Assembly: GCA_001604065.1 (NCBI GenBank)
Contig: LVAO01000012.1
Coordinates: 45,571 to 109,570 of the forward strand
Reading direction: 5' to 3'
Length of the DNA: 64,000 bases
From: Clostridiales bacterium Firm_09
GTDB lineage: Bacteria; Bacillota; Clostridia; Christensenellales; DTU072
Positions within the stretch are counted from its first letter, which is position 1; every line of letters starts with the position of its first letter. Positions 36,019 through 58,940 of this stretch are shown here, piece by piece. Under the pieces are notes generated by a model that was not told where the DNA came from, did not search any database, and saw only the letters and a list, made by a program, of their open reading frames with translations. The position numbers and the translations under genes are program-made.

Positions 36019-36021
36019 AAG

Positions 36022-40995: not shown

Positions 40996-41061
40996 CCTTA
41001 TCTATATTACATCGTTTGAATCAAATAATCAAGCGGTTTATTGAATAAAAGAGGCACAACC

Positions 41062-42255: not shown

Positions 42256-42334
42256 CAGTTCTCAAATCCGGTTCCGGCAGGCGGCTGTCCCGATCAGATA
42301 CGCGTGGCGGCCTTCGAGTCCGAAACAACAAAAC

Positions 42335-42362
42335 TGCCGCTATTTTTGCGGCAATTTGTTTG
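42335..42362. terminator. Bidirectional terminator between the convergent tmcAL gene and the giant-protein cassette
   Basis: TGCCGC-TATTTTT-GCGGCA is flanked by AACAACAAAA upstream and ATTTGTTT downstream, so a U-tract is available on both strands. Confidence 0.45.
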
Positions 42363-42405: not shown

Positions 42406-43308
42406 CTATTCTTCTTCGTTTTCGATCTGGTTGACGACCGTCACCTCGTCCACATAGAACTTCTTTTTGTTAAAAGTATGATATGCGACAAGATTCAGCG
42501 TGGCGGTCTGTATCAGAACAAACGGGATGGATAACGCCGGCAAAAGTCCGAACGTAAAAAGAAACGTCGTCATCACTACAGAAAAAAACAGGATATTTAC
42601 CACAAAAATGACGGGCATAACCTTCCAGAAATATTTGATTGAAAACCGGAAGGCCTCGCGGAAAGCGCACGCCACGCTTTTCTTTTCACAAATCATCTGC
42701 GGCACCCATTGCCCGAAAAGCGCCATTCTGGAAGAAAGCAATCCAAAGAATATCAGCATCGCAATCGCAATCGCAAACGGGCCAAGAGCGAAATACAAAA
42801 TCCGCATGAAATAAAAACAAAGTACCGTAATCATTGAATCCGCAATCAATGTCACCGTCGTATTGACAAGCGAATACAGAAGGGCCTTTCTTAAAGAAGA
42901 TACCAGCACATTCCTGAATTTCATAGAGAAGTTTTTACTCATTCGACCGTAGATCACTTCGCTCAGCGGAACATCTATCATCGAAAAGAAAAACTTTGCG
43001 AAAAAGACAACCAGAACCATCAGGAGTATGGCAATATCTATCTGTGAAGAAATATCGTTGACGACTGTATTGAGATCCTGTAAAAACTGTCCGAAAACAT
43101 CCATATTCTCGTGGTTGATGAAATCAGAAAGGATTTCTCTCAGCCGTCCCGAAAAATCGAGATTACTGTTCAAGGCATCCAAAATCGGATTGGCAATGGC
43201 AATCAGAAGTGCGGAACATATCAGCATCAGCACAAAACCGTAAATCAAAACTTTGAGCACCAGATCAAAATTTCTGCCGAGCATGGTGATGGAATATCTA
43301 GGTATCAT
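42406..43308 (-). CDS. Hypothetical polytopic membrane protein (300 aa), last gene of the cassette
   Basis: This is the in-frame internal ATG 43308 of track ORF 42406..44016, preceded by GGAGAAAAT. The protein starts MIPRYSITMLGRNFDLVLKVLIYGF and has about 6 hydrophobic segments. I recognise no motif. Confidence 0.7.
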   Translation of the reverse strand: MIPRYSITMLGRNFDLVLKVLIYGFVLMLICSALLIAIANPILDALNSNLDFSGRLREILSDFINHENMDVFGQFLQDLNTVVNDISSQIDIAILLMVLVVFFAKFFFSMIDVPLSEVIYGRMSKNFSMKFRNVLVSSLRKALLYSLVNTTVTLIADSMITVLCFYFMRILYFALGPFAIAIAMLIFFGLLSSRMALFGQWVPQMICEKKSVACAFREAFRFSIKYFWKVMPVIFVVNILFFSVVMTTFLFTFGLLPALSIPFVLIQTATLNLVAYHTFNKKKFYVDEVTVVNQIENEEE

Positions 43309-43319
43309 ATTTTCTCCTG

Positions 43320-44150
43320 TTATTTTCTGTTGCGGAAGAAGTATTCTCTGGGATAATCCTCCCGCGGAATATTTTCGATGTCGTAGTAAGAAACCATGGT
43401 CAGGGTCACCAGATACGGAAACATCATCGAATATGCGACGATGTCCCATATTTTTGATAAAAGGGATATCCGTATCAGAGCCAGCAGCCCGCCGCTGACG
43501 GCCAATACGGCAAGAGGAACCGCAAGCGCCGGCACGATGCGCCACAGAACACGCCCGCATTTCTGTACGCTCCCGGCAACAGCAGGCCTGAAACGCAATC
43601 CGTTGAACGACATCAGCGGCAATAACAGCAAGGTAAAAGAGCCAAACACACACATCCCGAACATAACGGCAAGGAGCGTAACTCCTGACAATACAGCAGA
43701 GAAAAGCACAGAACGTACCGTCTGCCACAATACCATAAGAAGCGTCACAAGCGTCTTGCCCACAAGAAAAAGGATCATATAAAGGGAAGCCGTAAAAATC
43801 CCTGCAAAAAAGGAATCGTTGAACTCCTCCGCAAGGCTGTTGATTTTGAATTTGCCCACACGCAACGACCGCGAAACAATGGAAGACAGCACGGATATGC
43901 AGAATACAGACAGAAAATACAAAACAGCCAGCCAGATCCAGAAAAAGAGTCCCCTGCCGCCATAATTCCATAAAAACCAGAAATCGGTATTCCCTACGGT
44001 ATAATGGCTCAGCCACTCTGTCAGCATCCCGGTAGGTGCTACAAAACTCAACGTTACCCCTGCGGGAACAGAAATCAGAAATAAGAGAATAGCTCGTTTG
44101 CCCCTTTCCAGCACGAACAAATACTCAAGCGTCTTCTTCAGGTAGGTCAT
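43320..44150 (-). CDS. Hypothetical polytopic membrane protein (276 aa)
   Basis: The protein starts MTYLKKTLEYLFVLERGKRAILLFLISVPAG and has about 6 hydrophobic segments. Its start forms an ATGA overlap with the upstream gene's stop. I recognise no motif. Confidence 0.7.
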   Translation of the reverse strand: MTYLKKTLEYLFVLERGKRAILLFLISVPAGVTLSFVAPTGMLTEWLSHYTVGNTDFWFLWNYGGRGLFFWIWLAVLYFLSVFCISVLSSIVSRSLRVGKFKINSLAEEFNDSFFAGIFTASLYMILFLVGKTLVTLLMVLWQTVRSVLFSAVLSGVTLLAVMFGMCVFGSFTLLLLPLMSFNGLRFRPAVAGSVQKCGRVLWRIVPALAVPLAVLAVSGGLLALIRISLLSKIWDIVAYSMMFPYLVTLTMVSYYDIENIPREDYPREYFFRNRK

Positions 44151-45850
44151 TCGATATCTTTCCCCCTGTATTTTTTTAGAGTGTCATCTTCCAGAAGATC
44201 TTCTTTTGTTTCATCGTCTCCGGCCGAGGCATCTTTTCTGACGGCGGAACGGCCTCCGATTTTAATGACACCTTTCTTAACCAAAAGAAACATCACAACA
44301 ACAAGCAGAACCAATCCTCCGGCTCCGGCGGACAGTCCGATCAGCAATCCTTTATTTGCCCTTTGATTTGCGTATTTTATAACAAAGAAAAATTCTTCGC
44401 TGTGCACATCGGAAGTAAATTGCACGATATTGCCGTCCCGGAGTATATCCTTGACTGCAAACGTTTTTGCGTTGTCAGTCGTGCTCACCAAGACAATTTG
44501 GGCATCTGCAGGAAATTCAACCTGGTAAATCATAGCGATGCGCGGGAGACACAGGATATCGTTTTTCATGAGGGTTGCCGTAATGTCAATCACTTTATCG
44601 GGTTCTTTTATCCCGGCAATCTCCAGCACCTCCGGATAAGCGAATCTTTTGATATCCTCTCCGTTGTAGGAAGTGATGATGCCTCCCAGCTCCAATTTGT
44701 CGCCGGGCAGCAAAGACGTTACATTGTCCAGATTAATTACTCTGAGGGAACCGTCCAGAAGCTCTGTATTGACAAAATCCGGTTGCGGAACAACGATTTT
44801 CGCCTCGCCGAACGCCGTTCTGGCAGCCTGCAGCGCCATGTATGCTTTGCGGATATTCTCCTGCGTATCATTGATCTGACATGCCGCGATAAAGCTGTTC
44901 AAAGTGTTTTTAAGATTATTATAGATATCCACATTGATTTTGCCTTCCCATTCCTGAAGCAAGGTTTGCGTTTCGGAAACCAGATCATTTTTATTGTATG
45001 CCGTATAACCGTTCCCGAAATCAAGATATACAATAAACTGCGGCTGTTCGGTATACTTGAACAGCGGCACATAAGTATTGTTGCCCAGCCAGTCTTCCAC
45101 AAACAGAATATACCAGCCGTTCTGATTTGCGGTAAACTGCACCGATTCCGTTATGGCGACAGATGTGGTAATGTTATTTTTCTTCACCACTTCGGTAAAT
45201 GCGCTTTTGAGCGATTCTATCACGTTTTCCGTTGTATCGTTCAAATCGATTTCCACAAACGGATTATAATGGAAGACGGTTATCTGCCTGATGCCGCTTC
45301 TTGCCGTAAGCTGCACATCGCTGTAATTATCCGTTATGGTCACCTCATATTTTAGTCCCGTACCGATCAGATTCTCTTTTAATACAAGATTGGCTATCTT
45401 CGGCGGTTTGTTGTCAATTTTTGTGACCTTCAGTTCCAGTTCGTCCGTATACTCATTTTCTGTGTCGCCCTTATTCAGCACCGCATAAAAAATGACATCG
45501 CAATTTTGGGAAAAAGAGACCGTTGCGTATTTATATTGCAGGATTTCCCCTTCGTAATGATTCTGCAAACTTGCCGTTATGTCTATGGCAGCAGGAGAAT
45601 CGATGAAGTTATCGACGGTATATCTCAGTTCGTCCGTTTCGGGGTCGCACTTCACAAGGTAGCGCATCGCGCCATTTGAGTAGCCCTCTTTGCCGGAATA
45701 TACATTGTAACCCGTATTGATGAGCGATGCTTCCAGCCGTTGTGTGACGACAGAGGAATCATCGGCGAACGCAGAAGCTCCCGCTGCCCACAACGCAGAC
45801 AGCAGGACGACAGCGCAAAGAAGAATAATTATACCTGACGTACGTTTCAT
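44147..45850 (-). CDS. Hypothetical secreted single-pass (type I) membrane protein, 567 aa
   Basis: The ORF track gives 44147..45880. ATG 45850 (MKRTSGIIILLCAVVLLSALWAAGASAFA) follows AAGGAG. The ectodomain is beta-rich (IDNKPPKI Ig-like cue). The C-terminal TM is GLLIGLSAGAGGLVLLVVVMFLLV, followed by a charged tail. There is no LPXTG. Confidence 0.75.
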   Translation of the reverse strand: MKRTSGIIILLCAVVLLSALWAAGASAFADDSSVVTQRLEASLINTGYNVYSGKEGYSNGAMRYLVKCDPETDELRYTVDNFIDSPAAIDITASLQNHYEGEILQYKYATVSFSQNCDVIFYAVLNKGDTENEYTDELELKVTKIDNKPPKIANLVLKENLIGTGLKYEVTITDNYSDVQLTARSGIRQITVFHYNPFVEIDLNDTTENVIESLKSAFTEVVKKNNITTSVAITESVQFTANQNGWYILFVEDWLGNNTYVPLFKYTEQPQFIVYLDFGNGYTAYNKNDLVSETQTLLQEWEGKINVDIYNNLKNTLNSFIAACQINDTQENIRKAYMALQAARTAFGEAKIVVPQPDFVNTELLDGSLRVINLDNVTSLLPGDKLELGGIITSYNGEDIKRFAYPEVLEIAGIKEPDKVIDITATLMKNDILCLPRIAMIYQVEFPADAQIVLVSTTDNAKTFAVKDILRDGNIVQFTSDVHSEEFFFVIKYANQRANKGLLIGLSAGAGGLVLLVVVMFLLVKKGVIKIGGRSAVRKDASAGDDETKEDLLEDDTLKKYRGKDIE

Positions 45851-45885
45851 AGAACTCCTTCCCCTCTCGTCTCTCCGCAACAGAG

Positions 45886-48800
45886 CTACCTTAATATTCG
45901 GCCTCTTCTCGCAACAGCCGCCATCCTTGCGGCGCGGCTTGCGGCTTTTGCTTCAGCATACTGATTTGCCCCATAAATATAACGCGCCATGCCGGGAATC
46001 CTCTTGCGGCGGCGAACAGGCGCAAATGCGAACAAAAAGAACGCGCCAATGATTATCATTAGTATTCCGCCGCCTACCACAATTATCCAGTAAGGGAAGT
46101 CGTTGGTATAGAAGATGATTTCACCGGACCGATCGGCATAAAACGTCATATAGTCTCCTTCGCGGATGAATTGTATATTCTCCTGAGACAAATCGCCCAA
46201 AGGTTTTACTTCCAAGGTTGGCGAATTGCGGTATTTTTCGGGAATCAGCACATGGAACTTAACTTTCTTATCAAGGACGACATCGGCGCCCAACTCTTTG
46301 ATAGAGATGGTCTGCACAATGGCAGTCTGCCCGAATAAACTGGAGAAGAAATTGGATTTATTCTGCGCAGAATAGACTTTCTCAAAAGAAACCGTGACGT
46401 TGGAGGAGAATCCTTCGTCGCAGGAAATATAAGAGCTTGTCTTGGGGTCCGTGATTACCTTCTGGTTGATCTTGACGGTTCCATTGAAGACGGGCGGAAT
46501 AACATTGTAATTGGATGCATGCAATCCGCTTATTTCCCAGGTCAATATCTCGACGCCGTATACTCCCGGCTCTGTCTCGCCGTTTTTTGTGCGGGCGGTC
46601 ATGGCAAGCCGTACCTCGTCGCCTACGATAAGACCCGTCAGCGTGCCGCTGACCGCAATAATATCCGTGCCGTCATACGGCTTGTTTACCACCTGGATGT
46701 TGTCAATGGTAATATCCTTTTTATAAATATAGAACATGCTTGTTTTTTCTGCCGGATAGAAGTTCTCATCGTTGACAACCACTTTTATGCGGTGCGTGCC
46801 TGCGGTTGTCGGCATGGACTCATAACCCGGGAAAGAAATGGTGTATGCGATATTGGCCGGACGTGTGACAACGGTCGGAACCTTCACCTTGCCGTACACC
46901 AGATTGATCAATGTCGACGCGTCAAAATCCAGATATTCCACCCTCGCCTTAGTGATGTCGTAATTGGGACGAACCGCCGCGGAATCAATATAATAATCCT
47001 CGTTTTCCAGCACCGCGTAGACAGTATATTCTCCGACATTCTCCGGCAGCGTCCTCCATACCGTAGAAGAACTGCTGTCGCGTTTGATGTATCGGTAAGA
47101 AAGACCGGCTTCGATGACGGAGATCCTCTGCAGGTCCTGCGGCAGGATGCTCGCTGTCAAAAGCCTTGCCCGGGCTGCCTTGGTTGCCGCATAGGTATAG
47201 CTGTACCATGTCGTGGCCTGGGAGTCTTCATCGTAGAACTCGATCTGCGCCTTGCGTTTGTTGATGGATACGTTATACACCAGCTCTCCGGTATAATTGG
47301 CATCATTGATTCTGGCGGTGTACATATATGTTCCGGCTGATGGCGTTTTGTTGAAAATGCCCTCGGAGGACATATATTGTGCGTTTGAAACGACAAGACC
47401 CAGCGGTGAGGTTCTGAAGGTAAGCTCGGGAAGCGTATCGCCGTAAACAAAGGAGGTTACGTTGCCGTATTTCATGCTTAAGCTGTCATATACAGTGATG
47501 GTCGCGGACGCCTTCATCAGTACCACTTCGATGGTGCTTTCGTAAATCTCATAATTTGCGGTATCCGTTGGAACAAAGCGGTACGGCATCGAATAATACG
47601 TACCGAGAATGCTGCTGATCTGACCGTCCGGGGATACATACGGCACAAATTGATACGGATTGCTGTTATCCGAAACACCACCCATTTCTACGCTGGCTCC
47701 CAGAAGGGTCAACCCCGTATAGGTAAAGCGGAAGGAGCCCGCAATCTCGGTATTGTTGGCAGGATTGATTGCGCGTCCCCCCACAAATGCTCCGTAAGAA
47801 AGGGACTGTCCGTATGTCAGCGCGCCGACAGTCGGCGCAACCACATCGTTATCGGTTATGACAGCTTTTGTAATCGTGAAGCTGACGGTTGAAGAACCTT
47901 CATAATTGCCGTCGCTGATTTTCATGACAACCTCATAGGTGCCTGCGGACTTAGGCTTATTGACGCCCTGCCTCAGTCCATTTATATATTGATAATAACT
48001 GTATGTGACGGCAAGATTGCTGACCGGATTGGTGCGTATCACCGGCTGCTGCTCCAATCCATTATAAGGCAGCGTCAACTGAATGCTTTCTATGGATGCC
48101 GCAGCCTTGAGAATCTTGATGGAAACGCCGGAAATCTCAGCCTCCGCATAATTTGGATTGGTGGGTACGAACACCAGCGTAACACTCCTGTCTCCCGCCG
48201 GCAGATCGTTTTTTTGCGGCTCTTTGAAGAAGAATTGACCCTGGACGTCCGAACCATCAAGATCCAGCACCGCAGCGCCGCCCGAAATAACAGCATTATA
48301 AAGTTCCTGTCCGTAAATCAGATTGGACACGACGGGCACTGCAGTGATATTGACTTTTAATTGGGTAATATCCATACGGACTTCACCCTGCCCCTCCGCA
48401 AGCACATAGTTCGTACCGGTCAGAATAATCTGCGCTTTATAGCTGCCGGCATTGACAGGTGTATCATCAAGCATTCTCCATCCGGTGCCCGTATTTGCAT
48501 AATACCGGATAATATAGCCGATATTGGACATCGCATTGCCGGAACCCGGTGATATTGTGAACATCGGATTGATGACAATGGCTTCTCCGAATTCAAAACT
48601 GTATGCCGCTTCCAGACTGACATAAATCTGCATCGCCGTGACAGTATACGGGAACTCCTGTCCTCCTTGATTGAAAGGATGGGTGGACAAAAAGGTTGCT
48701 CTGACAATGTAGCTGCCTGCGGCAACGGGTGCGCTCTGACCATAATCGATGTACTTGTCTGCAGAATAATAGGTCAGCTTGATTTCGCTTTCGTCCGCAG

Positions 48801-51800
48801 GATAATAAAGTGCTATCTTATATATTGCGGGATCCGAGGCAATGCCGCCCTGCGGAGAAGAAGAATAAATGGTAAACGGAATCACCACCGATGCTCCGGG
48901 CGCATCCGAAATGCCCATCGCCGCATTCTGAACCAGAGAAATTGTCAGACGGTACGTGCCCGGCATCGTCGCCGAAAGCACGGTTTCATAAAGAGAAGTC
49001 GACGTATTGTACCGCTGTATCTTCGTGATTTCATATGCCGGAAGGTCCTCGGTATCGATAAACCCGATGCCAAGATATTCTGCGGTCAGCGGCGCCCCGT
49101 CATATACTTTGCCTGCACGAGCGATCCCGAAAAAGTACTTTTTATATTGGTAATATACATTGAGATCTCCCGCCGTCTGACCGTATACGGTGTTGTTGCC
49201 TGTGATATGAATGAGATTGCTGTCCTCAGAAAGTCCTCCGTCAAATTCTTTCTTTTCTATCACATAATCAAATAGGCAGCGGCCATCGTACGTCATGGAT
49301 GTTTCTTCGTCCTGCACGTCATCAAAAACAAGTATTTCTACTTGATAGGTGCCCGGATCGCGCATTTCGGAGACCTGTATACCGTTTTTGTAGATTATCA
49401 TCCGGAACACGGAAAGATCGAGCTGTTCCTCGGTTCCGACCAGTCGGATATCAAGATTTTCAAGCGTCACCGGCTCTGCATCATATTTTTTTGATTGATT
49501 GGCAACATAGAAGTTTTCGCTGCCCAGATAAACATAAGTACGTATCTGGGTCAGTATTTCCAGAGGTTCATAATTTGGATGGCTGACAACCAGCTTGCAG
49601 GAATATGTTTCTTTGGAGTTCAGAATAATCTGATTCAAATCGGCGATATCCTCAATGGCATAGGTTGCTCCTTGAACTTTCAAAGAAGGATACAGGCTGT
49701 GCCATAAGTCAATATGAATATTGTTTACCGCGCTGCCCAAGGTCTCTCCCACATATCCTTTAATAAGAAGGGTATCCGGATTGTAACTCATTTCTGCCGT
49801 TCTTATATCGATATTGACAGAACCGTCGTATATGATGTTGTACACATCGGTGTTGTCCGGTATAAACATATAGCTTGCCTTCGCTCCCACGTCTACGATC
49901 TGCGTGCTGTCGGTCCAGCGGATTTGTCCGGGAACGGTAGACGTCGTATAGGTCAGGATGGATTGGCTGAGCGGCTGTCCATAATAGATTGAAGTGGCAG
50001 ACACCCCCGCCACAGACACATCGATGCCCAGCACGCGCACCTCAATCTGGAACAGCGCAATATCATAGGTGCTTAAAGAAGAAGGTGTAAACACCACCCA
50101 GACCTTATGATAGTTTGCCTTATCCATCACCAAATCGGGATCGCGGAAGGAGAACGTGCCTGCAATGCTGCGGAGCTGATTTTCATTTTCGCTTCCAGCG
50201 ATATAGGCAAGACCCGATGTCAGTCTGGATTCTGACAATGCGGAGCCTACGGGGATCGGGGATGCGGATGGCGCTTTTATTGCGGGTTTGGCTCTGTCGA
50301 TGATCAATGTGCCGGCAAGCGACTGCCCCTGGTAATTGGCATCCGATAGTTCGGCAACGATCGCATACGTTCCGACATTGGTCGGCAGCGTATAGGTGCC
50401 GTTATATTTAATACGTATCGTGAGCGCTCTGCCGTTATTATAAGAACTCTCAATCCCGGCCGCCTGCGCGTCCAGCCAGGCCGTGCAGCTTATCTGCTGC
50501 TGAGTAAACGCTTTATGAATTTCTACGCCATTTGCCCAACTGAGCAGCACACCGTTATCTGTAAAATAGAGATACTGTCCGATATCCTTTTTGCTGATGG
50601 TCAATGTTATGGTGCCGGTCGGCTGAATATAATTGATATCGGCTTTCCCGTTCTTCATCGGTATGAATCGGACGGTCACATTGCCATAAGTGCCAACTTT
50701 AAGAGAAGAAATATCCGACACTATCTGCCATATGCCGGAAACCGTAGTGCCCGATGCCGCAAAGCGCACCTGTCCTGTCCCGGGTACAAATGCAACCGGC
50801 TCGGTTTGTCTGTAAACCACATTGCCTGCAACCGCGGGCATCGTATCTATGATGAGGGTGGCCGGATTGATGCGGAGGGTAGGCTTGACATAATCTCCCA
50901 GCTGATAATCGTTGTCATTGAGCGTAATGGTCAGCACATAGAACCCTACGGACACCGGTCGGTTGTAGCTGTCAAATACCACGTCCGATACATCCGTCTT
51001 GGGTACCGGAGCGCCGCCGACCAGTGTCGGAACAACCTGCCCGTCCGAAATCGTGAATTCGCAAGGCGTATACTTATATACCGCCGTCAGATAAGAAGGA
51101 GAAAATACGGGAACAATCGCAAAACCGCTGCCGTTGTAGACAACGCTTCTGTTCTGGCTTCCGGAAGGTATCGTCATGACCGCATAGGCCTTTGAAATGC
51201 GCATGAACAATGGGAAATTGGGTGTGAGCGGTACTTCGGCGACTTTATCCTCATATTCCCCTTGATAAGACTGCATGATGGTCAGATTGACGGCGGGGTC
51301 TGTCAGATTGATGCCGTCCTGCACTGCGCTGAACACATCGATTTCTTTGTAATAGCCGTTTTCGTTGATGATGATGCGGACCTGGTATCTTCCGGCGTCC
51401 TTGGGTCTTGTCTCGCTGAAGAGGCCGATCAGATTGTTTTCGTCGTCGCGCTGCTCCGATCTGTAACGTACAGAATAGGATACCCCGGAAGGAACCACCT
51501 GAATGCCGATCTGCTTCTGTGCATCGTCATAAACATAATTCCAGTTCGTTATCGTGATAGAGGAAGGAATAATATAATAATTTATGTTCGCGGTGCCCTG
51601 ATAATTGTTCTCCGTAATCGTAATTTTTGCAATGTATCTGCCGACATCGGAAGGCACCTGATCGTACATGGATACGCCCGTATAGCGATAATATTGTATA
51701 GTGTATTTTATCGGTCCCGAATCGCCGGCATAACCGTCAAAATTGAGGCTTCCGAAGCCCTGGCTTTCACCGTTGTAAAAATAATACCTTTCTGCGAAAG

Positions 51801-54800
51801 CGATGTCTATGGTTTGCTTGGCAATGACCAGAGTCGTTGTCAGCGAGCCCGAATAATTGGGGAAATTGTCCAGCACTCTTATCGTCACTCTGTAAGAACC
51901 TGCTTCCGAAGGCGCCTTGGGATACACAATCTGGCCATCCAAAGAAGTATACGTCACTGTAGAATATTGCTTGATGTTCTCGTTGCCCGGATATGTGATG
52001 TTGTAATCTACCGGACGCTCGCTTCCGTTGTAAACAGTGCTGAGGGTCTCGGGTACGGGTACGATAGAAACGTCTTTGGTATTCTTATTAATTTTATATT
52101 CCCAGGTTAGATAATACACATTGTAGTAATCATACAATGTGCTGTCTGTGGGATAGAATTGCAAATCACGCCTTACCGGCTGGCCGGGAATATCCGCATG
52201 GGGCTTGTAGGTTTCGTCACCAGCCTGTGGAACAAGCCTGAAGACGCCGGAATACGCTGTACGCGTATACGGATTCTGCACCTGACCATTATAAAAATCG
52301 ATATCGGCAATCAGAACGCCGTATTCGACAACCTCCTGTGTGGGGTTGGACAAAATGCTCAGCGTTCCGCGGTGAATGACAAAATTATCAAAAACTCCGT
52401 TGCCCATGTAGTCATTGCTGGTGATATTGACGGTCAGAACATAATCCGATGCAGGCATGGCGGATACATAAGTTGTCATTCCCAGATTGGAAGAAATGTT
52501 GACTGTCTGTCCGTTCCTCGTATAAACATATTCCAGCATGTTCCGGATATCGCCCTGGAGATAGACTTTCTGATCCCCGTTCATATAATAAATCCTGCAT
52601 TCCGGAACGGTATACAGATTTCCGTAGGTCAATTCCCTGGATATTCCTGAACCCAGCTCAACATACGCCTGCATGGCGTTGACGGTAAGCGGAATCCTGA
52701 TATTGGTGAGCGGCCGGTAATTGTTGACGTCCACCGGCGTGAACGTGCAGGGAATCTCATGGATACCTTTTGAAAAAATGACGCTGGCGTAACTCGCATC
52801 GTATCTGATCGTATAGGTTCCGTTCGCCATGCCGCGATCAGGGTATCCTTCCTCAGGATAGCCTGTCGCAGGGGCAACCGGTTTCCCGATCAGAGTATGT
52901 CCGGCGCCAAAAGGCGTGCCGTATATAATGGGAGTAAAGGACATCCGGGACAAATCCGCCGTCGCCCTGGCGACAACCAGACTGACGCTGTATTCCATCA
53001 GATCAAAGTTGATGTTGGGCACGAACACACCGTCATGCCACTCTCCCGCCTGCCAGAACAAACGGATCGAGTAGCTGCTGACAACCCTGTTGTCGTATGC
53101 ATCGTATCGCACAGGCAGAATATACCTTCCCAGATAATCTTCATGGAGAATGACTTGGCCGGATGGATCGGATGCATAAAGAACATTGTATCGCGCGCAT
53201 ATTTCTGATTCGGTTTCAAAAAGAAACCTTCCATAAATCGTCGTCGATACTCCGGCGAGCACATAAGTTGCCGTATCGGATACGCCGCTCAGAAGGTTCG
53301 CCTTCCTGTCCTCTATGGTCTGGCCGTACTCAATATGCCCCTGGGTCGAGTCTCCCAGATAGCTCTGCAGAGAACCGTCCTTGTTGTATACCGCATATTC
53401 TGAATTCAGGCGGGGTGTCGGCTGACTGATGTCGGTAATCAGCGCTTTCTGGATCACCAATAAAACAAACACCGTGCCTTCATTGTTCGCGTCATTGACG
53501 CGGATCCGCAAGGCATACGTTCCGACCTCAAGGTCTTTGGGGAACATTGCTGCGGTATAATCCTGGCTGTATACAGCAGCGGACTCCGGCACAATGTCGC
53601 CGTTATAATATTTTACCTGCATGTAAGAATAGACATACGCCACATTCAGCGTCCCGCCGCCGGGTATGTTCGCCGTTGGTTTGGGTAAAAGCTGCGCATT
53701 CGTCTTTCCGTATTTGATCGTATAATATTTGTCAAATTGCTGTTGGGCATAGGTTTCGGGAGGGATGGAATTGTAGTTGACCGGCGTCAGTTCAAGTTCC
53801 CTCTTTTCTATAATGACCTTGGAAAACAATATTTTACTGCTCATGTAGTTGCAGGCGGAAGCATCGATATAATAGGTGATGCGATATTCCCCTGCGTTCA
53901 TGATGTTGTTGTATACCGTCCCTTCGTCTATGTATCCGCCGACATATGGATTGTAGTAATACCGTACCGGAAGACCTTCAATCACCGTTTGGTTGACTCT
54001 GGTGATAAAAACAATATCCTTGTACGTGCCGGTATAATCCAGCACAAGCGTGTTTTCTGCATTGATGCCTTCAATCTCAAGGTCGGCTTCGGCGTTCATC
54101 ACCGTAATATAAATGGTATGTGTGGTGGAATCAAAATTCCCGCTGTGATACATTCCTTTTTTAAGAACATAAACGCCGTTTACGTAATCGTAATAATCAT
54201 GTAAAGGACCGGGATTGCCGTTTACGGTCAAGAAGTTTTCATGAATCACCTGCTGCGTGAATACTGCCGTATCCGTAAGAGCAATGGGATTGAAGCGCAC
54301 TTCCACCCTCATATTGGAGGAAACATTGGGGAGCATATAATCCAGAGAGTTATGCGCCGGATAAATGATTTCATATGTCCCCAATACGCCGGATTTCGTC
54401 TCAAAATAATCCACACCTTTAATATTGAATTTCGCATTGATGATGTCTGCGCCGCTTGCATTCTGACTGATAAAGCTCAGATCATCCAGACTTTCGCCGT
54501 AAACAATGCCCGGGCTGTAAAGTCCCGTCACCTGGGGATTTGCCTTGATGATTTTGTAATATCCGGATTTTGTGCCAAAATACAGCGTCGTCGTCGTCAC
54601 GTCAATCGTGATTGTATAATAATATTCTCCGACATCCACCAGTCCGTTGTTAAGCCCGGAGCCTTCTTTATACATGGTTGTCTGATAGATTGTCTGCCCG
54701 TTGACAACATATTGCGTCATTTGGAGAATATGATAGCTGCCCTGTCCGGCAATTATAATGGTGTTATTGAGACTCAGCAGGCCTGTATAATTGTAGCGGT

Positions 54801-57126
54801 AGCTCCCGATGACTACGCTGCCGTAATCCTGCATTACGCCGTTTATGTATGTCGGTTCGACAGAATAGCGCACGGGTTCATAGTATACGGTATTGAAGCT
54901 TAGGCCGGTAATCATTGTTGTGCCTTCGTATGCCTCAATATAGTCTTCCAGTCCTTGGGATCTCCCGTTAAAAACGAATTCTGTGGAGGTGGTCGTGATG
55001 TTCAGGGATTTCCTGAAATAGAAGAATACCGCTCTTACACCATCCATATATTCTTTTGTCAGCTTGAACGTAATATCGATATAATCCGGCCTGCCTGTCG
55101 ATCCGGGATTGAATACAATGCCTTCATTATTGGATTCATTGATGCCCGCTTCATCGCTTCGATAGCGAATCAATTTATATGCCGCGGCCTGCGCCGAGGT
55201 AACGGAAATACGTATCGTCAGCCATTGATCCATCTTGAACTTCATGTTTACTTCTTTATCGGAACCGTAACCGTATGACGTGACACCCAAAAATGTTCCG
55301 TCCGCAGTATGATAAGTCGGTCCCCAGAAGCACTCCCGGTAGGCAGCTTTGGTATGGTTTGCACCCAGAAGTTCGTTGGCATGGCCTTCATCGCCGCTGC
55401 CGATCAAAAAGCTGGTGGTAATATTGTAATAGGTGGAGTCCACTTTGACAGGGTTGCCGTCGGCGGTGTAATAGATTTTGGGCACGCTGACATTTCCTGC
55501 GGCATCTATGCGGAACAGCACCAGCGCCTGCTCCTGTTTGTTTCTGAACGTGATCGGCCTGGTTTTCTGCGTATACCGTCCGGGACTGATTTGATTGTAA
55601 TAAATCAATTCCTGCCGCACATCGCTCTGTTTTGGTTCGTTGTTGCGATTGTTATACGATATGCTTGTGTAAAGAAGAGGAGTAAAATCATAGTCCGAAT
55701 AATCTATGGTGAGAAGCATTGGGTCTTCGCAGACAAACGCGTATACGTATTCTCTTGATTGAACGGGCACGGTGGATGCGATATAGCTCAGCAATACGGA
55801 ATCGCTGTCGATGAACCAGTTTCCGTTTGCAATGGCCGTTCCCAGCACAGAATCAGGATCGATTTCGGGCGCGGACGGCGCTCTGCCGTCAACGTTGATG
55901 CGCAGCGGGTCCTGACTGATTGAGGCCGTTCCGCGCACGCAGGATGGCCCGTCTTTATCGTAAGTGACCAAAAGCTGCGGCACAATAACAAGCTGGTAAA
56001 TATTTCTGACGCCGGAGTCCACTTGAAACGATATCTGATAATATGTCACAGGCTGCGAATTTTCTATCACTGTCGTATATCCGCTTTCTTCTGCAAGGAT
56101 GGAAAGAAATTTCAGGTCCAGATTATCTTCCGGATCGCCCGTCACGACATTAAGGCTTGTGGAATACTGCTGCCAATATACACCATAGCGGGAATCATTG
56201 CCGAAAACCTTGGTGTATATCGCAGGAAGCTGATAGCAGGTGGTTGTATCGCCGTCCCGGAAGACCTTGGTGCGCAGCGTGATCTTGTCTCCTGTCTTCA
56301 CATAGGTATCGGCAAGCTGGTTGATATAATCGGGCGTATTTTTATTGAATGTATCCAGAGCGACATCTCTTTTGTTGGAGCCCGAAATTTCAAAAACAGA
56401 ACTGGTGCGGAAGGTAATCGCATCCGTAAGGCTGGTGGCTGTTTCGATCACGATGTTGGAAAGGCGTATCCAGGTCCCCGTACCGTTGATTTGAATGTTT
56501 ATTTTGAAATAAGCGTTTGCATTGAGTCCCGTACTGCCCAATGCGTTATCAAACGACATTTCGACGGGATAGTTGGTCATATCCAATGTCGCGCTTATTA
56601 CTTTTGTTTGTTCTGTGGTGCCGTTTGCCGACCATGCAAACGTAATCACGACAGGAACATTCGGGCCTGAAATAACACTGATATTGAAATTGAGCGTCGC
56701 GGTTGTGACGAAGTCTCCGGTGAGACCTCCGAGCATCGCATTATAGAAGTTGTTATCGTTGTAGTTGGAGCTGAATTTTATGATGGAACGGATGCTGTCG
56801 CCGCTGGCATTGGGCAGATATTCCAACTCTGTTCTGCTTGCCCTGTAGCGGCCGCCCGTCGTGTTGGTGGAAAAAAGATCCGCGCCGTCAAACTGTCCGA
56901 CATGTTCGGAAATATCGCCGCTGTCCTGCGCCTGTGTCCGGACGGAATTGGAGCCGAGAACAACGCCCATCCCCGAGCTCAATGTCGTTCCGTTGATGCC
57001 TGCCGCACCGGCCGGCAGCTCAGACGCTTTCTGCCCGAACGTAATAAAAGCAAACGTGCCGATCATCAGACATACCGCAATCAGAATCAGTGAGGATACG
57101 GTCAGGCGGGAAACCCTTTTTTTCAT
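45886..57126 (-). CDS. Giant (3,746 aa) repeat-rich surface protein with N-terminal signal, jelly-roll-like tip, dozens of Ig/MBG-like modules and a C-terminal TM anchor
   Basis: A single uninterrupted ORF. The signal is MKKRVSRLTVSSLILIAVCLMIGTFAFITF. The motif (A/V)G(T/S/E)Y.(V/I)...(I/V).D.NY.G recurs at least 14 times. A YDGT module is present (VVNKPYDGTDIIAVSG). The C-terminus is WIIVVGGGILMIIIGAFFLFAFA followed by PVRRRKRIP and a basic tail. Confidence 0.88.
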   Translation of the reverse strand: MKKRVSRLTVSSLILIAVCLMIGTFAFITFGQKASELPAGAAGINGTTLSSGMGVVLGSNSVRTQAQDSGDISEHVGQFDGADLFSTNTTGGRYRASRTELEYLPNASGDSIRSIIKFSSNYNDNNFYNAMLGGLTGDFVTTATLNFNISVISGPNVPVVITFAWSANGTTEQTKVISATLDMTNYPVEMSFDNALGSTGLNANAYFKINIQINGTGTWIRLSNIVIETATSLTDAITFRTSSVFEISGSNKRDVALDTFNKNTPDYINQLADTYVKTGDKITLRTKVFRDGDTTTCYQLPAIYTKVFGNDSRYGVYWQQYSTSLNVVTGDPEDNLDLKFLSILAEESGYTTVIENSQPVTYYQISFQVDSGVRNIYQLVIVPQLLVTYDKDGPSCVRGTASISQDPLRINVDGRAPSAPEIDPDSVLGTAIANGNWFIDSDSVLLSYIASTVPVQSREYVYAFVCEDPMLLTIDYSDYDFTPLLYTSISYNNRNNEPKQSDVRQELIYYNQISPGRYTQKTRPITFRNKQEQALVLFRIDAAGNVSVPKIYYTADGNPVKVDSTYYNITTSFLIGSGDEGHANELLGANHTKAAYRECFWGPTYHTADGTFLGVTSYGYGSDKEVNMKFKMDQWLTIRISVTSAQAAAYKLIRYRSDEAGINESNNEGIVFNPGSTGRPDYIDITFKLTKEYMDGVRAVFFYFRKSLNITTTSTEFVFNGRSQGLEDYIEAYEGTTMITGLSFNTVYYEPVRYSVEPTYINGVMQDYGSVVIGSYRYNYTGLLSLNNTIIIAGQGSYHILQMTQYVVNGQTIYQTTMYKEGSGLNNGLVDVGEYYYTITIDVTTTTLYFGTKSGYYKIIKANPQVTGLYSPGIVYGESLDDLSFISQNASGADIINAKFNIKGVDYFETKSGVLGTYEIIYPAHNSLDYMLPNVSSNMRVEVRFNPIALTDTAVFTQQVIHENFLTVNGNPGPLHDYYDYVNGVYVLKKGMYHSGNFDSTTHTIYITVMNAEADLEIEGINAENTLVLDYTGTYKDIVFITRVNQTVIEGLPVRYYYNPYVGGYIDEGTVYNNIMNAGEYRITYYIDASACNYMSSKILFSKVIIEKRELELTPVNYNSIPPETYAQQQFDKYYTIKYGKTNAQLLPKPTANIPGGGTLNVAYVYSYMQVKYYNGDIVPESAAVYSQDYTAAMFPKDLEVGTYALRIRVNDANNEGTVFVLLVIQKALITDISQPTPRLNSEYAVYNKDGSLQSYLGDSTQGHIEYGQTIEDRKANLLSGVSDTATYVLAGVSTTIYGRFLFETESEICARYNVLYASDPSGQVILHEDYLGRYILPVRYDAYDNRVVSSYSIRLFWQAGEWHDGVFVPNINFDLMEYSVSLVVARATADLSRMSFTPIIYGTPFGAGHTLIGKPVAPATGYPEEGYPDRGMANGTYTIRYDASYASVIFSKGIHEIPCTFTPVDVNNYRPLTNIRIPLTVNAMQAYVELGSGISRELTYGNLYTVPECRIYYMNGDQKVYLQGDIRNMLEYVYTRNGQTVNISSNLGMTTYVSAMPASDYVLTVNITSNDYMGNGVFDNFVIHRGTLSILSNPTQEVVEYGVLIADIDFYNGQVQNPYTRTAYSGVFRLVPQAGDETYKPHADIPGQPVRRDLQFYPTDSTLYDYYNVYYLTWEYKINKNTKDVSIVPVPETLSTVYNGSERPVDYNITYPGNENIKQYSTVTYTSLDGQIVYPKAPSEAGSYRVTIRVLDNFPNYSGSLTTTLVIAKQTIDIAFAERYYFYNGESQGFGSLNFDGYAGDSGPIKYTIQYYRYTGVSMYDQVPSDVGRYIAKITITENNYQGTANINYYIIPSSITITNWNYVYDDAQKQIGIQVVPSGVSYSVRYRSEQRDDENNLIGLFSETRPKDAGRYQVRIIINENGYYKEIDVFSAVQDGINLTDPAVNLTIMQSYQGEYEDKVAEVPLTPNFPLFMRISKAYAVMTIPSGSQNRSVVYNGSGFAIVPVFSPSYLTAVYKYTPCEFTISDGQVVPTLVGGAPVPKTDVSDVVFDSYNRPVSVGFYVLTITLNDNDYQLGDYVKPTLRINPATLIIDTMPAVAGNVVYRQTEPVAFVPGTGQVRFAASGTTVSGIWQIVSDISSLKVGTYGNVTVRFIPMKNGKADINYIQPTGTITLTISKKDIGQYLYFTDNGVLLSWANGVEIHKAFTQQQISCTAWLDAQAAGIESSYNNGRALTIRIKYNGTYTLPTNVGTYAIVAELSDANYQGQSLAGTLIIDRAKPAIKAPSASPIPVGSALSESRLTSGLAYIAGSENENQLRSIAGTFSFRDPDLVMDKANYHKVWVVFTPSSLSTYDIALFQIEVRVLGIDVSVAGVSATSIYYGQPLSQSILTYTTSTVPGQIRWTDSTQIVDVGAKASYMFIPDNTDVYNIIYDGSVNIDIRTAEMSYNPDTLLIKGYVGETLGSAVNNIHIDLWHSLYPSLKVQGATYAIEDIADLNQIILNSKETYSCKLVVSHPNYEPLEILTQIRTYVYLGSENFYVANQSKKYDAEPVTLENLDIRLVGTEEQLDLSVFRMIIYKNGIQVSEMRDPGTYQVEILVFDDVQDEETSMTYDGRCLFDYVIEKKEFDGGLSEDSNLIHITGNNTVYGQTAGDLNVYYQYKKYFFGIARAGKVYDGAPLTAEYLGIGFIDTEDLPAYEITKIQRYNTSTSLYETVLSATMPGTYRLTISLVQNAAMGISDAPGASVVIPFTIYSSSPQGGIASDPAIYKIALYYPADESEIKLTYYSADKYIDYGQSAPVAAGSYIVRATFLSTHPFNQGGQEFPYTVTAMQIYVSLEAAYSFEFGEAIVINPMFTISPGSGNAMSNIGYIIRYYANTGTGWRMLDDTPVNAGSYKAQIILTGTNYVLAEGQGEVRMDITQLKVNITAVPVVSNLIYGQELYNAVISGGAAVLDLDGSDVQGQFFFKEPQKNDLPAGDRSVTLVFVPTNPNYAEAEISGVSIKILKAAASIESIQLTLPYNGLEQQPVIRTNPVSNLAVTYSYYQYINGLRQGVNKPKSAGTYEVVMKISDGNYEGSSTVSFTITKAVITDNDVVAPTVGALTYGQSLSYGAFVGGRAINPANNTEIAGSFRFTYTGLTLLGASVEMGGVSDNSNPYQFVPYVSPDGQISSILGTYYSMPYRFVPTDTANYEIYESTIEVVLMKASATITVYDSLSMKYGNVTSFVYGDTLPELTFRTSPLGLVVSNAQYMSSEGIFNKTPSAGTYMYTARINDANYTGELVYNVSINKRKAQIEFYDEDSQATTWYSYTYAATKAARARLLTASILPQDLQRISVIEAGLSYRYIKRDSSSSTVWRTLPENVGEYTVYAVLENEDYYIDSAAVRPNYDITKARVEYLDFDASTLINLVYGKVKVPTVVTRPANIAYTISFPGYESMPTTAGTHRIKVVVNDENFYPAEKTSMFYIYKKDITIDNIQVVNKPYDGTDIIAVSGTLTGLIVGDEVRLAMTARTKNGETEPGVYGVEILTWEISGLHASNYNVIPPVFNGTVKINQKVITDPKTSSYISCDEGFSSNVTVSFEKVYSAQNKSNFFSSLFGQTAIVQTISIKELGADVVLDKKVKFHVLIPEKYRNSPTLEVKPLGDLSQENIQFIREGDYMTFYADRSGEIIFYTNDFPYWIIVVGGGILMIIIGAFFLFAFAPVRRRKRIPGMARYIYGANQYAEAKAASRAARMAAVARRGRILR
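46400..54700 (-). repeat. Coding region of divergent tandem ~90-110-aa Ig/MBG-like modules
   Basis: Examples: VGEYYYTITIDV (nt ~54600), EAGSYRVTIRVLDNFPNYSG, NVGTYAIVAELSDANYQG, SAGTYEVVMKISDGNYEG, SAGTYMYTARINDANYTG, TAGTHRIKVVVNDENF, PGVYGVEILTWEISG (nt ~46550). The modules are often bounded by I.K(A/K)...I. Confidence 0.65.
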
Positions 57127-57234
57127 AACGTGAGAACCTCCGATAAGCTATTAATATAATACACGATAGTATCCGGGACGTTGCCATACGTAACGCGCCC
57201 GCGGAGCATATTAATATTAATACAGTACAGTCTT

Positions 57235-57263
57235 ATTCTATTATATATAAGGCATCCCGTCAA
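57235..57263 (-). promoter_or_regulatory. Candidate promoter of the giant-protein cassette
   Basis: On the minus strand: TTGACG (57263-57258), 17 nt, TAGAAT (57240-57235). This predicts a ~100-nt 5' UTR. Confidence 0.4.
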
Positions 57264-58259: not shown

Positions 58260-58303
58260 GACCGTCGTTGCACGAAATCCGCCATGCCGCACCGGTTGTC
58301 CCA

Positions 58304-58786: not shown

Positions 58787-58940
58787 GCAGGTATCTCCGG
58801 TAAAAAGATTTTCATAAATCATAACACAACTCCGCCGGGATTACAACCCTATCCGAAGCAGCCTTTCGAAAAACCGATGGACAAATCACAAAACGGATAA
58901 AAACTGTGTTACTTCTTCCGTATGCAAAATATATTGTTAT

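What the first reader, a model, noticed from the sequence alone, without database searches (positions are those of the whole stretch)
42406..57263. Four-gene cassette: a 3,746-aa repeat protein plus three uncharacterised membrane proteins (candidate sortase-independent display module for a giant adhesin)
Four minus-strand genes are packed as a single unit. The giant gene ends at 45886 and the next gene starts at 45850 with AAGGAG. Gene 2 and gene 3 overlap as ATGA at 44147-44150. Gene 3 and gene 4 are separated by 11 nt containing GGAG.

There is one candidate promoter (57235-57263) and one bidirectional terminator (42335-42362). The partners are a signal-peptide single-pass protein and two polytopic proteins of 276 and 300 aa. 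I can place none of the three in a known family.

The cassette has no ATPase, sortase, LPXTG, SLH or cell-wall-binding repeats, and no glycosyltransferase. I infer that the three small proteins form a dedicated membrane platform for insertion, anchoring or turnover of the giant C-terminally anchored protein. That would be an undescribed accessory system.
Basis: partly seen in the sequence, partly recalled or inferred. Interest (0 to 1): 0.8.

Follow-up and report, generated by a model that had tools for sequence, protein, structure and literature searches.

The report
Giant adhesin operon plus membrane pair
This is a real four-gene operon in Christensenellaceae-like Clostridia, encoding a 3,746-residue membrane-tethered surface protein, a smaller companion with the same anchor, and two related six-helix membrane proteins; but those two belong to a much wider uncharacterised family that usually has no giant neighbour, so the proposed dedicated display machine is only partly supported.

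Summary

- **Giant:** a Pfam MBG_3 repeat protein with an N-terminal signal and a C-terminal transmembrane (TM) helix followed by a basic tail.
- **Gene 2 (567 aa):** a surface protein of Ig-like beta-sandwiches plus a helical bundle. Its last domain, TM helix and tail are homologous to the giant's anchor module. It occurs only next to orthologous giants.
- **Genes 3 and 4:** paralogues of each other. They define a broad family (261 clusters at 50% identity) with a confident six-helix fold. They are weakly related to the function-unknown DUF975/GPDPase_memb membrane proteins, and their conserved residues face the cytoplasm.

The four-gene order holds in about ten lineages with at least four different downstream flanks. 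These lineages form a single clade, so the linkage counts as one evolutionary event. Six more distant lineages keep the gene 3–gene 4 pair without the orthologous giant or gene 2.

The best reading is a composite operon: an adhesin-plus-companion module joined to an older, general-purpose membrane pair. A dedicated anchoring platform remains possible but unproven. Interest is moderate.

The parts
57235..57263 (-). Sigma-70-like promoter candidate, TTGACG-17-TAGAAT, about 100 nt upstream of the giant's ATG.
   Evidence: (10 of 12 positions match) and the sequence. It is weak on its own: 37 such sites were found in the region against 26 expected. The leader has no Rfam match.
45886..57126 (-). 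Gene 1: a 3,746-aa surface protein with an N-terminal signal/anchor, diverged MBG_3 repeats, and a C-terminal TM helix plus basic tail.
   Evidence: Pfam MBG_3 scores 150.7 bits over 7 stretches; YDG scores 21.5 bits, below its cut-off. Orthologues align collinearly in 9 other lineages.
45889..46878 (-). The giant's C-terminal anchor module (last ~330 aa): YDG-like and beta-sandwich domains, the invariant REGDYxTFYADRSGE...DFPYW motif, a TM helix (46021-46092), then a P-x-R-[RK]-R...R..Y basic cytoplasmic tail.
   Evidence: Alignment of 9 lineages. This is the best conserved part of the protein, at 55-58% mean pairwise identity just before the membrane, against 24-28% for most of the protein.
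44147..45850 (-). Gene 2: a 567-aa type I membrane protein with a signal peptide, two beta-sandwich domains, a three-helix bundle, a third beta-sandwich, a Gly-rich TM helix and a charged tail.
   Evidence: AlphaFold2 gives mean pLDDT 76.5, with the ectodomain at 80-93. Foldseek finds only generic Ig-like multidomain matches with low TM-scores. No family was found. Orthologues identified by synteny are 17-65% identical.
44150..44581 (-). Gene 2's anchor module (residues ~424-567), homologous to the giant's C-terminal module.
   Evidence: hhalign of the gene 2 profile against the giant C-terminal profile: probability 92.8%, E 4e-7, 136 columns.
43320..44150 (-). Gene 3: a 276-aa six-TM protein with N- and C-termini inside, a member of a broad unnamed family.
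   Evidence: Profile search: 261 representatives with E<=1e-3, all ~270-285 aa. AlphaFold2: pLDDT 95.7, pTM 0.92. Conserved residues Y10, R97, G99, N111, P178, M180, G184, R263 and D265 all lie in predicted cytoplasmic segments.
42406..43308 (-). Gene 4: a 300-aa six-TM protein, a paralogue of gene 3, always immediately downstream of it.
   Evidence: hhalign of the gene 3 family against the gene 4 family: probability 96-98%, E 3e-9 (local) and 6e-12 (global). The gene after every distant gene 3 homologue matches the gene 4 HMM at E 1e-26 to 1e-53.
42331..42357 (-). Intrinsic terminator closing the operon. It is bidirectional, shared with the convergent HIGH_NTase1 gene at 41041-42255.
   Evidence: 10-bp stem, 5 G-C pairs, T-run; a plus-strand counterpart lies at 42335-42353. 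One search identifies the neighbouring gene.

Best explanation
This is a composite, lineage-restricted operon made of two modules.

**Module A (genes 1 and 2)** is a surface-fibre pair. It comprises a Sec-exported 3,746-aa MBG-repeat adhesin and a 567-aa Ig-like companion. Both stay tethered to the cytoplasmic membrane by a homologous juxtamembrane beta-domain, a Gly-rich TM helix and a charged cytoplasmic tail. No sortase or wall-binding domain is involved.

**Module B (genes 3 and 4)** is an older two-gene unit of paralogous six-helix membrane proteins, found widely without giants. They most likely form a pseudo-symmetric heterodimer. Their fold is DUF975/GPDPase_memb-like and their conserved surface faces the cytoplasm. 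Their molecular job is general and does not depend on a giant adhesin.

In one clade of Christensenellaceae-like Clostridia, module A came to lie directly upstream of module B. The four genes have since been inherited, and probably transcribed and translationally coupled, as one unit.

**Shown:** gene structure, homologies, fold, phyletic pattern and single origin.
**Inferred:** the membrane topology, the heterodimer, co-transcription, and any physical contact between the pair and the two anchors.
For: **Operon anatomy:**

**Giant:** an MBG_3 protein. Its orthologues align collinearly, and the juxtamembrane region is the best conserved part.

**Gene 2:**
- It aligns over its full length among syntenic orthologues.
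- It has a beta-sandwich/helical-bundle architecture.
- Its anchor module is homologous to the giant's.

**Genes 3 and 4:**
- They are paralogues.
- They always occur as an adjacent pair.
- The family has 261 clusters.
- Weak GPDPase_memb, DUF624 and DUF7544 hits occur in 11, 1 and 1 of 94 gene 3 relatives, and in one gene 4 relative.
- The best structural match is a DUF975 protein (probability 0.99, TM 0.40/0.51).
- The positive-inside rule places all family-wide conserved residues in the cytoplasm.

**Cassette conservation:** it is kept with four different downstream flanks.

**Single origin:** the giant-linked gene 3 copies are monophyletic.

**Distant pairs:** they lack the giant and gene 2, and sit behind a HAD hydrolase (overlapping it in L024) or beside two small divergent genes.
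Against: - The four genes have stayed contiguous and tightly spaced across deep divergence and flank rearrangement. That is also what a true functional complex would show.
- The C-terminal tail of gene 4 is more acidic in most giant-linked lineages (-2 to -12), while the giant's tail is strongly basic. This could be a sign of co-adaptation.
- Only six distant contexts out of 261 clusters were sampled.
- The tree is a 16-sequence, midpoint-rooted neighbour-joining tree without support values.
- Profile-profile scores between membrane proteins can be inflated by composition.
- Nothing is known experimentally about the DUF975/GPDPase_memb superfamily, so 'general function' is a statement about distribution, not mechanism.
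Confidence: 0.55

Rival explanations
1. One reading: all three small proteins form a dedicated membrane platform that inserts, anchors or turns over the giant C-terminally anchored adhesin. This would be an undescribed accessory system.
For: - Cassette order and tight junctions are conserved in about ten lineages with four different downstream flanks.
- Gene 2 is giant-specific and shares the anchor module.
- The giant's juxtamembrane motif, TM helix and basic tail are its most conserved part.
- The gene 4 tail is acidic in most giant-linked lineages.
- Both anchors have Gly-rich TM helices.
Against: - The gene 3-gene 4 pair is far more widespread than the giant (261 clusters).
- The pair is intact without the orthologous giant and gene 2 in all six distant lineages examined.
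- The linkage arose once.
- Family-wide conserved residues are kept unchanged in the linked copies and face the cytoplasm, which does not fit handling of a 3,650-aa ectodomain.
- There is no protease-type or transpeptidase-type invariant His or Cys.
Confidence: 0.2
2. Genes 3 and 4 are a membrane module that works with phospho-ester hydrolases on a small-molecule or lipid-linked substrate, or senses or transports one. On this view it is unrelated to the adhesin and merely shares its promoter.
For: - Weak homology to the membrane domain that is fused to glycerophosphodiester phosphodiesterases (PF10110).
- A HAD-family hydrolase lies immediately upstream of the pair in two separate distant lineages, overlapping it in one.
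- The conserved face is cytoplasmic.
- Weak Foldseek similarity to choline-transporter-like proteins 9qu3 and 9f63 (probability 0.82-0.89, but TM only 0.38-0.43).
Against: - All sequence hits are below Pfam's gathering scores.
- TM-scores are below 0.5.
- Neither a GDPD nor a HAD gene is in or next to this cassette.
- The HAD association rests on two lineages.
- No member of the superfamily has a demonstrated substrate in the searchable literature.
Confidence: 0.15
3. The cassette is cargo of a prophage or other mobile element.
For: In five loci (four to five lineages: L007, L012/L017, L018, L019), gene 4 is followed within about 3 kb by a phage head module: an SH3_3 protein, large terminase, P22-type portal and a capsid-sized gene.
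Against: - In the window and the L001-type lineages the flanks are core housekeeping genes: pta, ackA, plsX, rnc, whiA and murB.
- Nothing was found in 2.9 million viral contigs.
- There are no PHROG hits.
- GC content across the cassette (0.46-0.50) is within the window's range.
- There is no integrase or repeat boundary.
Confidence: 0.04
4. The small polytopic proteins are members of a well-characterised family, such as an ABC-2 permease, an MFS transporter, or an exosortase, rhombosortase or CPBP-type sorting enzyme acting on the C-terminal signal.
For: - One public source labels a gene 3 homologue 'MFS family permease'.
- The giant's C-terminus has the tripartite look of a sorting signal: a motif, a TM helix and a basic cluster.
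Against: - No Pfam or NCBIfam hit to any such family, even at relaxed E-values, for the window proteins or for about 100 relatives.
- No ABC ATPase is nearby.
- Foldseek matches to ABC exporters have probability at or below 0.35 and TM at or below 0.26.
- There is no invariant Cys, His or Ser-His set.
- The basic cluster is followed by 30-50 further residues rather than ending the protein.
Confidence: 0.02

Closest known systems
DUF975 / GPDPase_memb (PF10110) / DUF624 (YesL-type) polytopic membrane proteins of unknown function
   Same: - Size (~275-300 aa) and an all-helical polytopic build.
- Weak Pfam hits to PF10110 in 11 of 94 gene 3 relatives (best E 4.6e-5) and in one gene 4 relative (E 0.0015).
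- The best structural match in the viral structure library is a DUF975 protein (probability 0.99).
   Different: - No member reaches a curated threshold.
- The window proteins themselves give no hit.
- There is no fused or adjacent phosphodiesterase.
- Here the proteins come as an obligate adjacent paralogous pair, which is not a described feature of those families.
- The superfamily has no established function, so the comparison says what the proteins look like, not what they do.
MBG-domain giant surface proteins of Firmicutes (Pfam MBG_3 PF18887, YDG PF18657)
   Same: The giant carries at least 7 MBG_3 stretches well above threshold, plus a YDG-like domain near its C-terminus.
   Different: - It is anchored by its own C-terminal TM helix with a conserved DFPYW juxtamembrane motif, rather than by LPXTG/sortase, SLH or choline-binding repeats.
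- It is followed by a conserved three-gene tail.
Ebh-type giant staphylococcal surface protein, tethered by a C-terminal TM segment (from general knowledge; not tested here)
   Same: A very large repeat protein exported by Sec and held by a C-terminal membrane-spanning segment, with no sortase.
   Different: - The repeats are unrelated.
- To my knowledge no dedicated downstream companion or polytopic pair is described for Ebh.
Accessory Sec (SecA2/SecY2-Asp) loci for serine-rich-repeat adhesins (from general knowledge)
   Same: The concept of a large adhesin gene clustered with dedicated membrane and accessory genes.
   Different: - Those loci contain an ATPase (SecA2), a SecY paralogue, Asp proteins and glycosyltransferases, and the adhesin is LPXTG-anchored.
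- None of these is present here.
LapA-LapG-LapD and other retention modules for giant adhesins in Gram-negative bacteria (from general knowledge)
   Same: The idea that inner-membrane partners with cytoplasm-facing regulatory surfaces control the display of a giant adhesin.
   Different: - No T1SS, periplasmic protease, or GGDEF/EAL/HAMP domain is present.
- The host is monoderm.
- There is no sequence or fold similarity.

Membership tests
MBG-domain adhesins (PF18887 MBG_3) | Repeated MBG_3 domains scoring above Pfam's gathering score | tested here: met
   150.7 bits against a cut-off of 25, E 1.2e-44, 7 stretches. Orthologous giants are also annotated MBG_3.
YDG domain (PF18657) | Score above the gathering threshold | tested here: inconclusive
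   21.5 bits against a cut-off of 25, at residues 3469-3542.
GPDPase_memb (PF10110) / DUF975 / DUF624 superfamily | Sequence match at or above the curated Pfam threshold | tested here: not met
   - The window's genes 3 and 4 give no hit even at E<=5.
- Of 94 gene 3 relatives, 11 hit PF10110 weakly (best E 4.6e-5).
- One gene 4 relative hits at E 0.0015, 17.8 bits against a cut-off of 29.6.
- Ten further relatives gave nothing.
GPDPase_memb (PF10110) / DUF975 / DUF624 superfamily | Shared polytopic helical fold | tested here: inconclusive
   The AlphaFold2 model of gene 3 is confident (pLDDT 95.7). The top BFVD match is a DUF975 protein, with probability 0.99 but E 0.085 and TM 0.40/0.51. PDB holds no significant match.
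GPDPase_memb (PF10110) | Fusion to or adjacency with a glycerophosphodiester phosphodiesterase domain | tested here: not met
   No GDPD domain is in the cassette or its flanks.
Sortase / LPXTG anchoring | A C-terminal LPXTG-type motif directly before the TM helix and basic tail, and a sortase gene | tested here: not met
   The only loose motif matches are at residues 104 and 2859 of 3746. The pre-TM motif is DFPYW. No sortase domain was found in the window genes scanned.
Accessory Sec (aSec) adhesin export locus | SecA2 ATPase, a SecY2 paralogue, Asp proteins and glycosyltransferases next to the adhesin | tested here: not met
   Genes 2-4 contain none of these domains. The FtsY and Ffh genes in the window, at 15.8-18.6 kb, are the ordinary SRP genes.
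ABC-2 type permease | A Pfam ABC2_membrane match and a partner ABC ATPase gene | tested here: not met
   No such hit for genes 3 and 4 or for about 100 relatives. No ATPase lies in or beside the cassette. Foldseek matches to ABC exporters have TM <=0.26.
Exosortase / rhombosortase / CPBP-type C-terminal sorting enzymes | Invariant catalytic residues (Cys/Arg/His, Ser/His, or EExxxR plus His) in a polytopic protein | tested here: not met
   The invariant columns of gene 3 and gene 4 contain no His. The only Cys (C207 of gene 4) is merely near-invariant. No Pfam hit.
Single operon | Same strand, short or overlapping junctions, one promoter and one terminator | tested here: met
   Junctions are +35, -4 and +11 nt in the window. 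Overlaps or short gaps are seen in the other lineages. The terminator lies only after gene 4.
Single operon | One transcript spanning all four genes | not testable with these tools
   This needs RNA-seq, 5'-RACE or metatranscriptome read mapping.

The most novel reading that the evidence does not exclude
In this clade, the gene 3-gene 4 heterodimer has been recruited as a cytoplasm-facing docking platform. It would clamp the homologous TM helices and basic tails of the giant adhesin and its 567-aa companion. For example, the acidic gene 4 tail could pair with the P-x-R-R-R...R..Y tail of the giant. This would give a sortase-independent anchoring or inside-out control system for a megadalton surface fibre, and the first function for any DUF975/GPDPase_memb-like membrane protein.
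Probability: 0.15. Interest if true: 0.65.

Novelty: new variant of a known kind. Interest (0 to 1): 0.35.

Why it matters
Giant surface proteins are common in gut and digester Clostridia, but how those lacking sortase signals are held on the cell is poorly understood.

This locus offers a defined, conserved anchor module: a juxtamembrane domain, the DFPYW motif, a TM helix and a basic tail. The giant shares this module with a small, tractable companion protein.

It also brings to light a large unnamed family of paired six-helix membrane proteins with a confident predicted fold and a cytoplasm-facing conserved surface. At least 261 clusters exist and none is in Pfam.

If the pair really docks the anchors, that would be a new way of tethering adhesins in monoderm bacteria. 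If not, the locus is still a clean example of how operon fusion can mimic a 'dedicated accessory system'.

Tried and rejected
- **Family searches.** Pfam, NCBIfam, PHROGs and PADLOC on the three small proteins found nothing at normal thresholds.
- **Gene 2 against the giant.** BLASTP of gene 2 against the giant found nothing. Only profile-profile comparison revealed the shared anchor module. Similarity between the gene 2 and giant N-termini was not significant (hhalign probability 0.5%).
- **Genes 3 and 4 as paralogues.** The first hhalign, with shallow alignments, was inconclusive (probability 9%). It became significant only with deeper profiles.
- **PDB searches.** Foldseek of the gene 3 model against PDB gave no hit with E<0.1. 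I treat the choline-transporter-like and ABC-exporter rows as noise or a weak lead. The PDB sequence search with the gene 2 profile returned only compositional matches of its Gly-rich TM helix to APP and similar chains.
- **Collection scans.** The viral contig scan found nothing. The metagenome scan added only known lineages. A scan with the 94-sequence alignment failed for lack of a conserved stretch.
- **Regulatory RNA.** Rfam found no riboswitch or other RNA in the leader or anywhere in the window.
- **Repeats.** There is no DNA tandem repeat in the giant. My self-BLAST for internal protein repeats returned nothing usable.
- **Literature.** Searches for DUF975, GPDPase_memb, DUF624 and the MBG domain returned only table mentions and no functional study.
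- **L008.** The giant gene 1.8 kb from the pair in L008 is MBG-like and TM-anchored, but gives no BLAST match to the window giant. I did not count it as a cassette.
- **Structure prediction.** It was repeated after looking the same proteins up in the collection.
Full report
**Observation**

ORF listing and translation confirm four minus-strand genes exactly as described:
- a 3,746-aa ORF at 45886-57126;
- a 567-aa protein starting at ATG 45850;
- a 276-aa protein at 43320-44150;
- a 300-aa protein at 42406-43308.

The junctions were read from the sequence. There are 35 nt with AAGGAG between genes 1 and 2, an ATGA overlap between genes 2 and 3, and 11 nt containing GGAG between genes 3 and 4.

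A TTGACG-17-TAGAAT site lies at 57263-57235, and a strong bidirectional hairpin terminator at 42331-42357. The promoter match alone is weak, because 37 such sites occur in the region against 26 +/- 6 in shuffles. No comparable terminator sits at an internal junction.

The surrounding genes are ordinary Clostridia housekeeping genes: pta, ackA, plsX, rnc, smc, ftsY, ffh, whiA, murB and a HIGH_NTase1 gene convergent with gene 4. Base composition is unremarkable. Exact copies of genes 2-4 were called on several independent public contigs, and of the giant on one or two.

**The giant and gene 2**

The giant carries at least seven MBG_3 stretches (150.7 bits) and a sub-threshold YDG domain. It has an N-terminal signal/anchor and a C-terminal TM helix with a 44-residue basic tail. 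It has no C-terminal LPXTG and no DNA-level tandem repeats.

Giants from nine other lineages align collinearly with it. The last ~1,000 residues are 33-40% identical, against 24-28% for the rest. Conservation peaks just before the membrane, at 55-58% mean pairwise identity. Invariant motifs there are KVKF...P, REGDYxTFYADRSGE and DFPYW, followed after the TM helix by P-x-R-[RK]-R...R..Y.

Gene 2 has no family hit. Its syntenic orthologues align end to end at 17-65% identity. An AlphaFold2 model gives mean pLDDT 76.5, with the ectodomain at 80-93. It shows a signal peptide, two beta-sandwiches, a three-helix bundle, a third beta-sandwich, a TM helix and a disordered tail. Foldseek finds only generic Ig-like multidomain proteins with low global TM-scores.

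A profile-profile comparison shows that gene 2's last domain, TM helix and tail are homologous to the giant's C-terminal module (probability 92.8%, E 4e-7). Gene 2 is therefore a short surface protein built on the same anchor as the giant. It was seen only next to orthologous giants.

**Genes 3 and 4**

Word-indexed searches found few relatives: 11 for gene 3 and 15 for gene 4. An exhaustive profile search with the gene 3 alignment found much more: 261 representatives at 50% identity with E<=1e-3, and 151 at <=1e-10. Most of those listed are 265-290 aa.

With 94 of these as the alignment, AlphaFold2 gives a very confident all-helical model (pLDDT 95.7, pTM 0.92).

Deep profiles show that the gene 3 and gene 4 families are homologous (hhalign probability 96-98%, E 3e-9 local and 6e-12 global). 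The match is centred on a shared 'LWxPxM...G......A...S' loop.

Neither window protein hits Pfam. However, 11 of 94 gene 3 relatives weakly match PF10110 GPDPase_memb (best E 4.6e-5), and single relatives match DUF624 and DUF7544. One gene 4 relative matches PF10110 at E 0.0015.

PDB holds no significant structural match. The top match in the viral structure library is a DUF975 family protein (probability 0.99, E 0.085, TM 0.40/0.51).

I therefore regard the pair as a new family on the fringe of the function-unknown DUF975/GPDPase_memb membrane superfamily. It resembles that superfamily but fails the curated membership thresholds.

The positive-inside rule gives an N-in, C-in six-TM topology. 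All residues conserved across the family (Y10, R97, G99, N111, P178, M180, G184, R263, D265) fall in predicted cytoplasmic segments. No invariant His or Cys exists that would suggest a sorting protease or transpeptidase.

**Gene neighbourhoods**

The order giant(MBG_3), ~550 aa, ~275 aa, ~300 aa, with overlapping or very short junctions, is found in these groups:
- The L001-type lineage (gene 3 51% identical) has the same pta/ackA flank as the window.
- L007, L012/L017, L018 and L019 (40-44%) are followed by a phage-like head module.
- L020 (38%) and L021/L022 (33-34%) have two further downstream contexts.
- In L036, a gene 2-like C-terminus precedes the pair.

All genome records that carry the cassette are Christensenellaceae or unclassified Clostridia MAGs.

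Six more distant lineages keep an adjacent gene 3-like and gene 4-like pair, whose second gene matches the gene 4 HMM at E 1e-26 to 1e-53. None has the orthologous giant or gene 2:
- L024 and L028/29 sit behind a HAD-family hydrolase, overlapping it in L024.
- L008, L023, L025 and L026/27 sit next to two small divergently transcribed genes.
- L008 does have an MBG-like, TM-anchored giant ending 1.8 kb away, across three opposite-strand genes. It gives no BLAST match to the window giant.

A neighbour-joining tree of the 16 gene 3 sequences with known context puts all giant-linked copies in one clade. That clade is sister to the 'small divergent genes' group, with the HAD-linked pairs outside. 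The tree is midpoint-rooted and has no support values.

**Interpretation**

The linkage is real and old, but it is a single evolutionary event. The gene 3-gene 4 pair clearly predates it and functions without a giant.

The most economical reading is a composite operon. A two-gene surface module (the giant plus a companion sharing its anchor) was placed upstream of a pre-existing membrane-protein pair. The two have been inherited together since. Once the pair depends on the upstream promoter, separating them would be costly, so persistence alone does not prove a shared function.

Some features keep a functional link alive:
- Contiguity has survived several changes of downstream flank.
- Translational coupling is seen in most lineages.
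- The cytoplasmic tail of the giant is conserved and basic.
- The gene 4 tail is more acidic in most giant-linked lineages (-2 to -12, with one exception at 0) than in most others (-3 to +1).
- Both anchors have Gly-rich TM helices.

I put the dedicated-platform model at about 0.2, and the specific docking version at about 0.15.

**Other rivals**

A role with phospho-ester hydrolases is suggested by the PF10110 link and the HAD neighbours, but it rests on weak hits and two lineages.

A mobile or prophage origin is disfavoured by the housekeeping flanks, the empty viral scan and the absence of PHROG hits.

ABC-2, MFS and sorting-enzyme assignments were tested and not met.

**Novelty and verdict**

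I found no description of this cassette or of the paired family in the searchable literature. The DUF975-type proteins appear there only as table entries.

The finding is a genuine, conserved, uncharacterised operon. It has an interesting shared anchor module and a large unnamed membrane-protein family. The headline claim of a new adhesin-display machine is not established, and is partly contradicted by the phyletic pattern.

I rate it a new variant of a known kind (a TM-anchored giant MBG adhesin locus joined to a DUF-like membrane pair), with interest 0.35.

Noticed in passing
window 22285-33615 (-): A second giant gene in the same window: 3,776 aa with 24 BspA-type LRR_5 stretches plus Flg_new (Listeria-Bacteroides) repeats. 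It is syntenic in the L001-type relatives, directly after rnc, and has no accessory trio downstream (smc follows).
   Followed up: partly
window 33616-36369, ORF 33748-36018 (+): A 2.75-kb stretch between the LRR giant and rnc holds a 756-aa plus-strand ORF (TTG start, one N-terminal hydrophobic segment, no Pfam hit). In the L001-type relatives the same two genes are only ~230 nt apart, so this looks like a lineage-specific insertion of an unknown gene.
   Followed up: partly
L007 11987-20828; L012 11970-20825; L018 11983-20835; L019 10314-19072: In four to five species-level lineages the cassette is followed by the same phage-like head module: an SH3_3 protein on the opposite strand, a small ~110-aa gene, large terminase, P22/SU10-type portal and a ~393-aa capsid-sized gene. 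Such conserved synteny across lineages only 40-48% identical in gene 3 suggests an old prophage remnant or a domesticated (GTA-like) element.
   Followed up: no
L008 6649-7289; L023 7993-8591; L025 374-957; L026 1312-1853: The giant-free sister clade of gene 3-gene 4 pairs always has two small (70-107 aa) genes transcribed divergently just upstream. One looks like a sigma-70 region-4-type HTH protein, and the other ends in a conserved ...EWLEVEIE. Neither has a Pfam hit. They may be a dedicated regulator pair.
   Followed up: partly
L024 4118-4756; L028 9228-9866: In two separate distant lineages a 212-aa HAD-family hydrolase lies immediately upstream of the gene 3-gene 4 pair, overlapping gene 3 in L024. 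Together with the weak similarity to the membrane domain of glycerophosphodiester phosphodiesterases, this hints at a link with phospho-ester metabolism.
   Followed up: partly
L008 1-5712: An unrelated MBG-like, C-terminally TM-anchored giant (at least 1,903 aa, no BLAST match to the window giant) ends 1.8 kb upstream of a giant-free-type pair. An M50 peptidase and two small opposite-strand genes separate them. This may be coincidence, or a looser recurrent association between such pairs and TM-anchored giants.
   Followed up: partly
window 44150-44330 (gene 2 TM helix) and 46021-46092 (giant TM helix): Both anchor helices are rich in small-xxx-small/GxxxG-type motifs (GLLIGLSAGAGGLV and VVGGGILMIIIG). 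The gene 2 helix even draws compositional PDB matches to the amyloid precursor TM helix. This fits helix-helix packing in the membrane, but I did not test it.
   Followed up: no
window 57375-58259 (+): The gene divergent from the giant's promoter encodes a 294-aa protein with only a sub-threshold SPOR-domain match (20.0 bits against a cut-off of 21). It is followed by a 210-aa gene (58268-58900) with no Pfam hit and a 320-aa gene with only a sub-threshold Gate-domain match; I took them for spmA/spmB-like genes without testing this.
   Followed up: no
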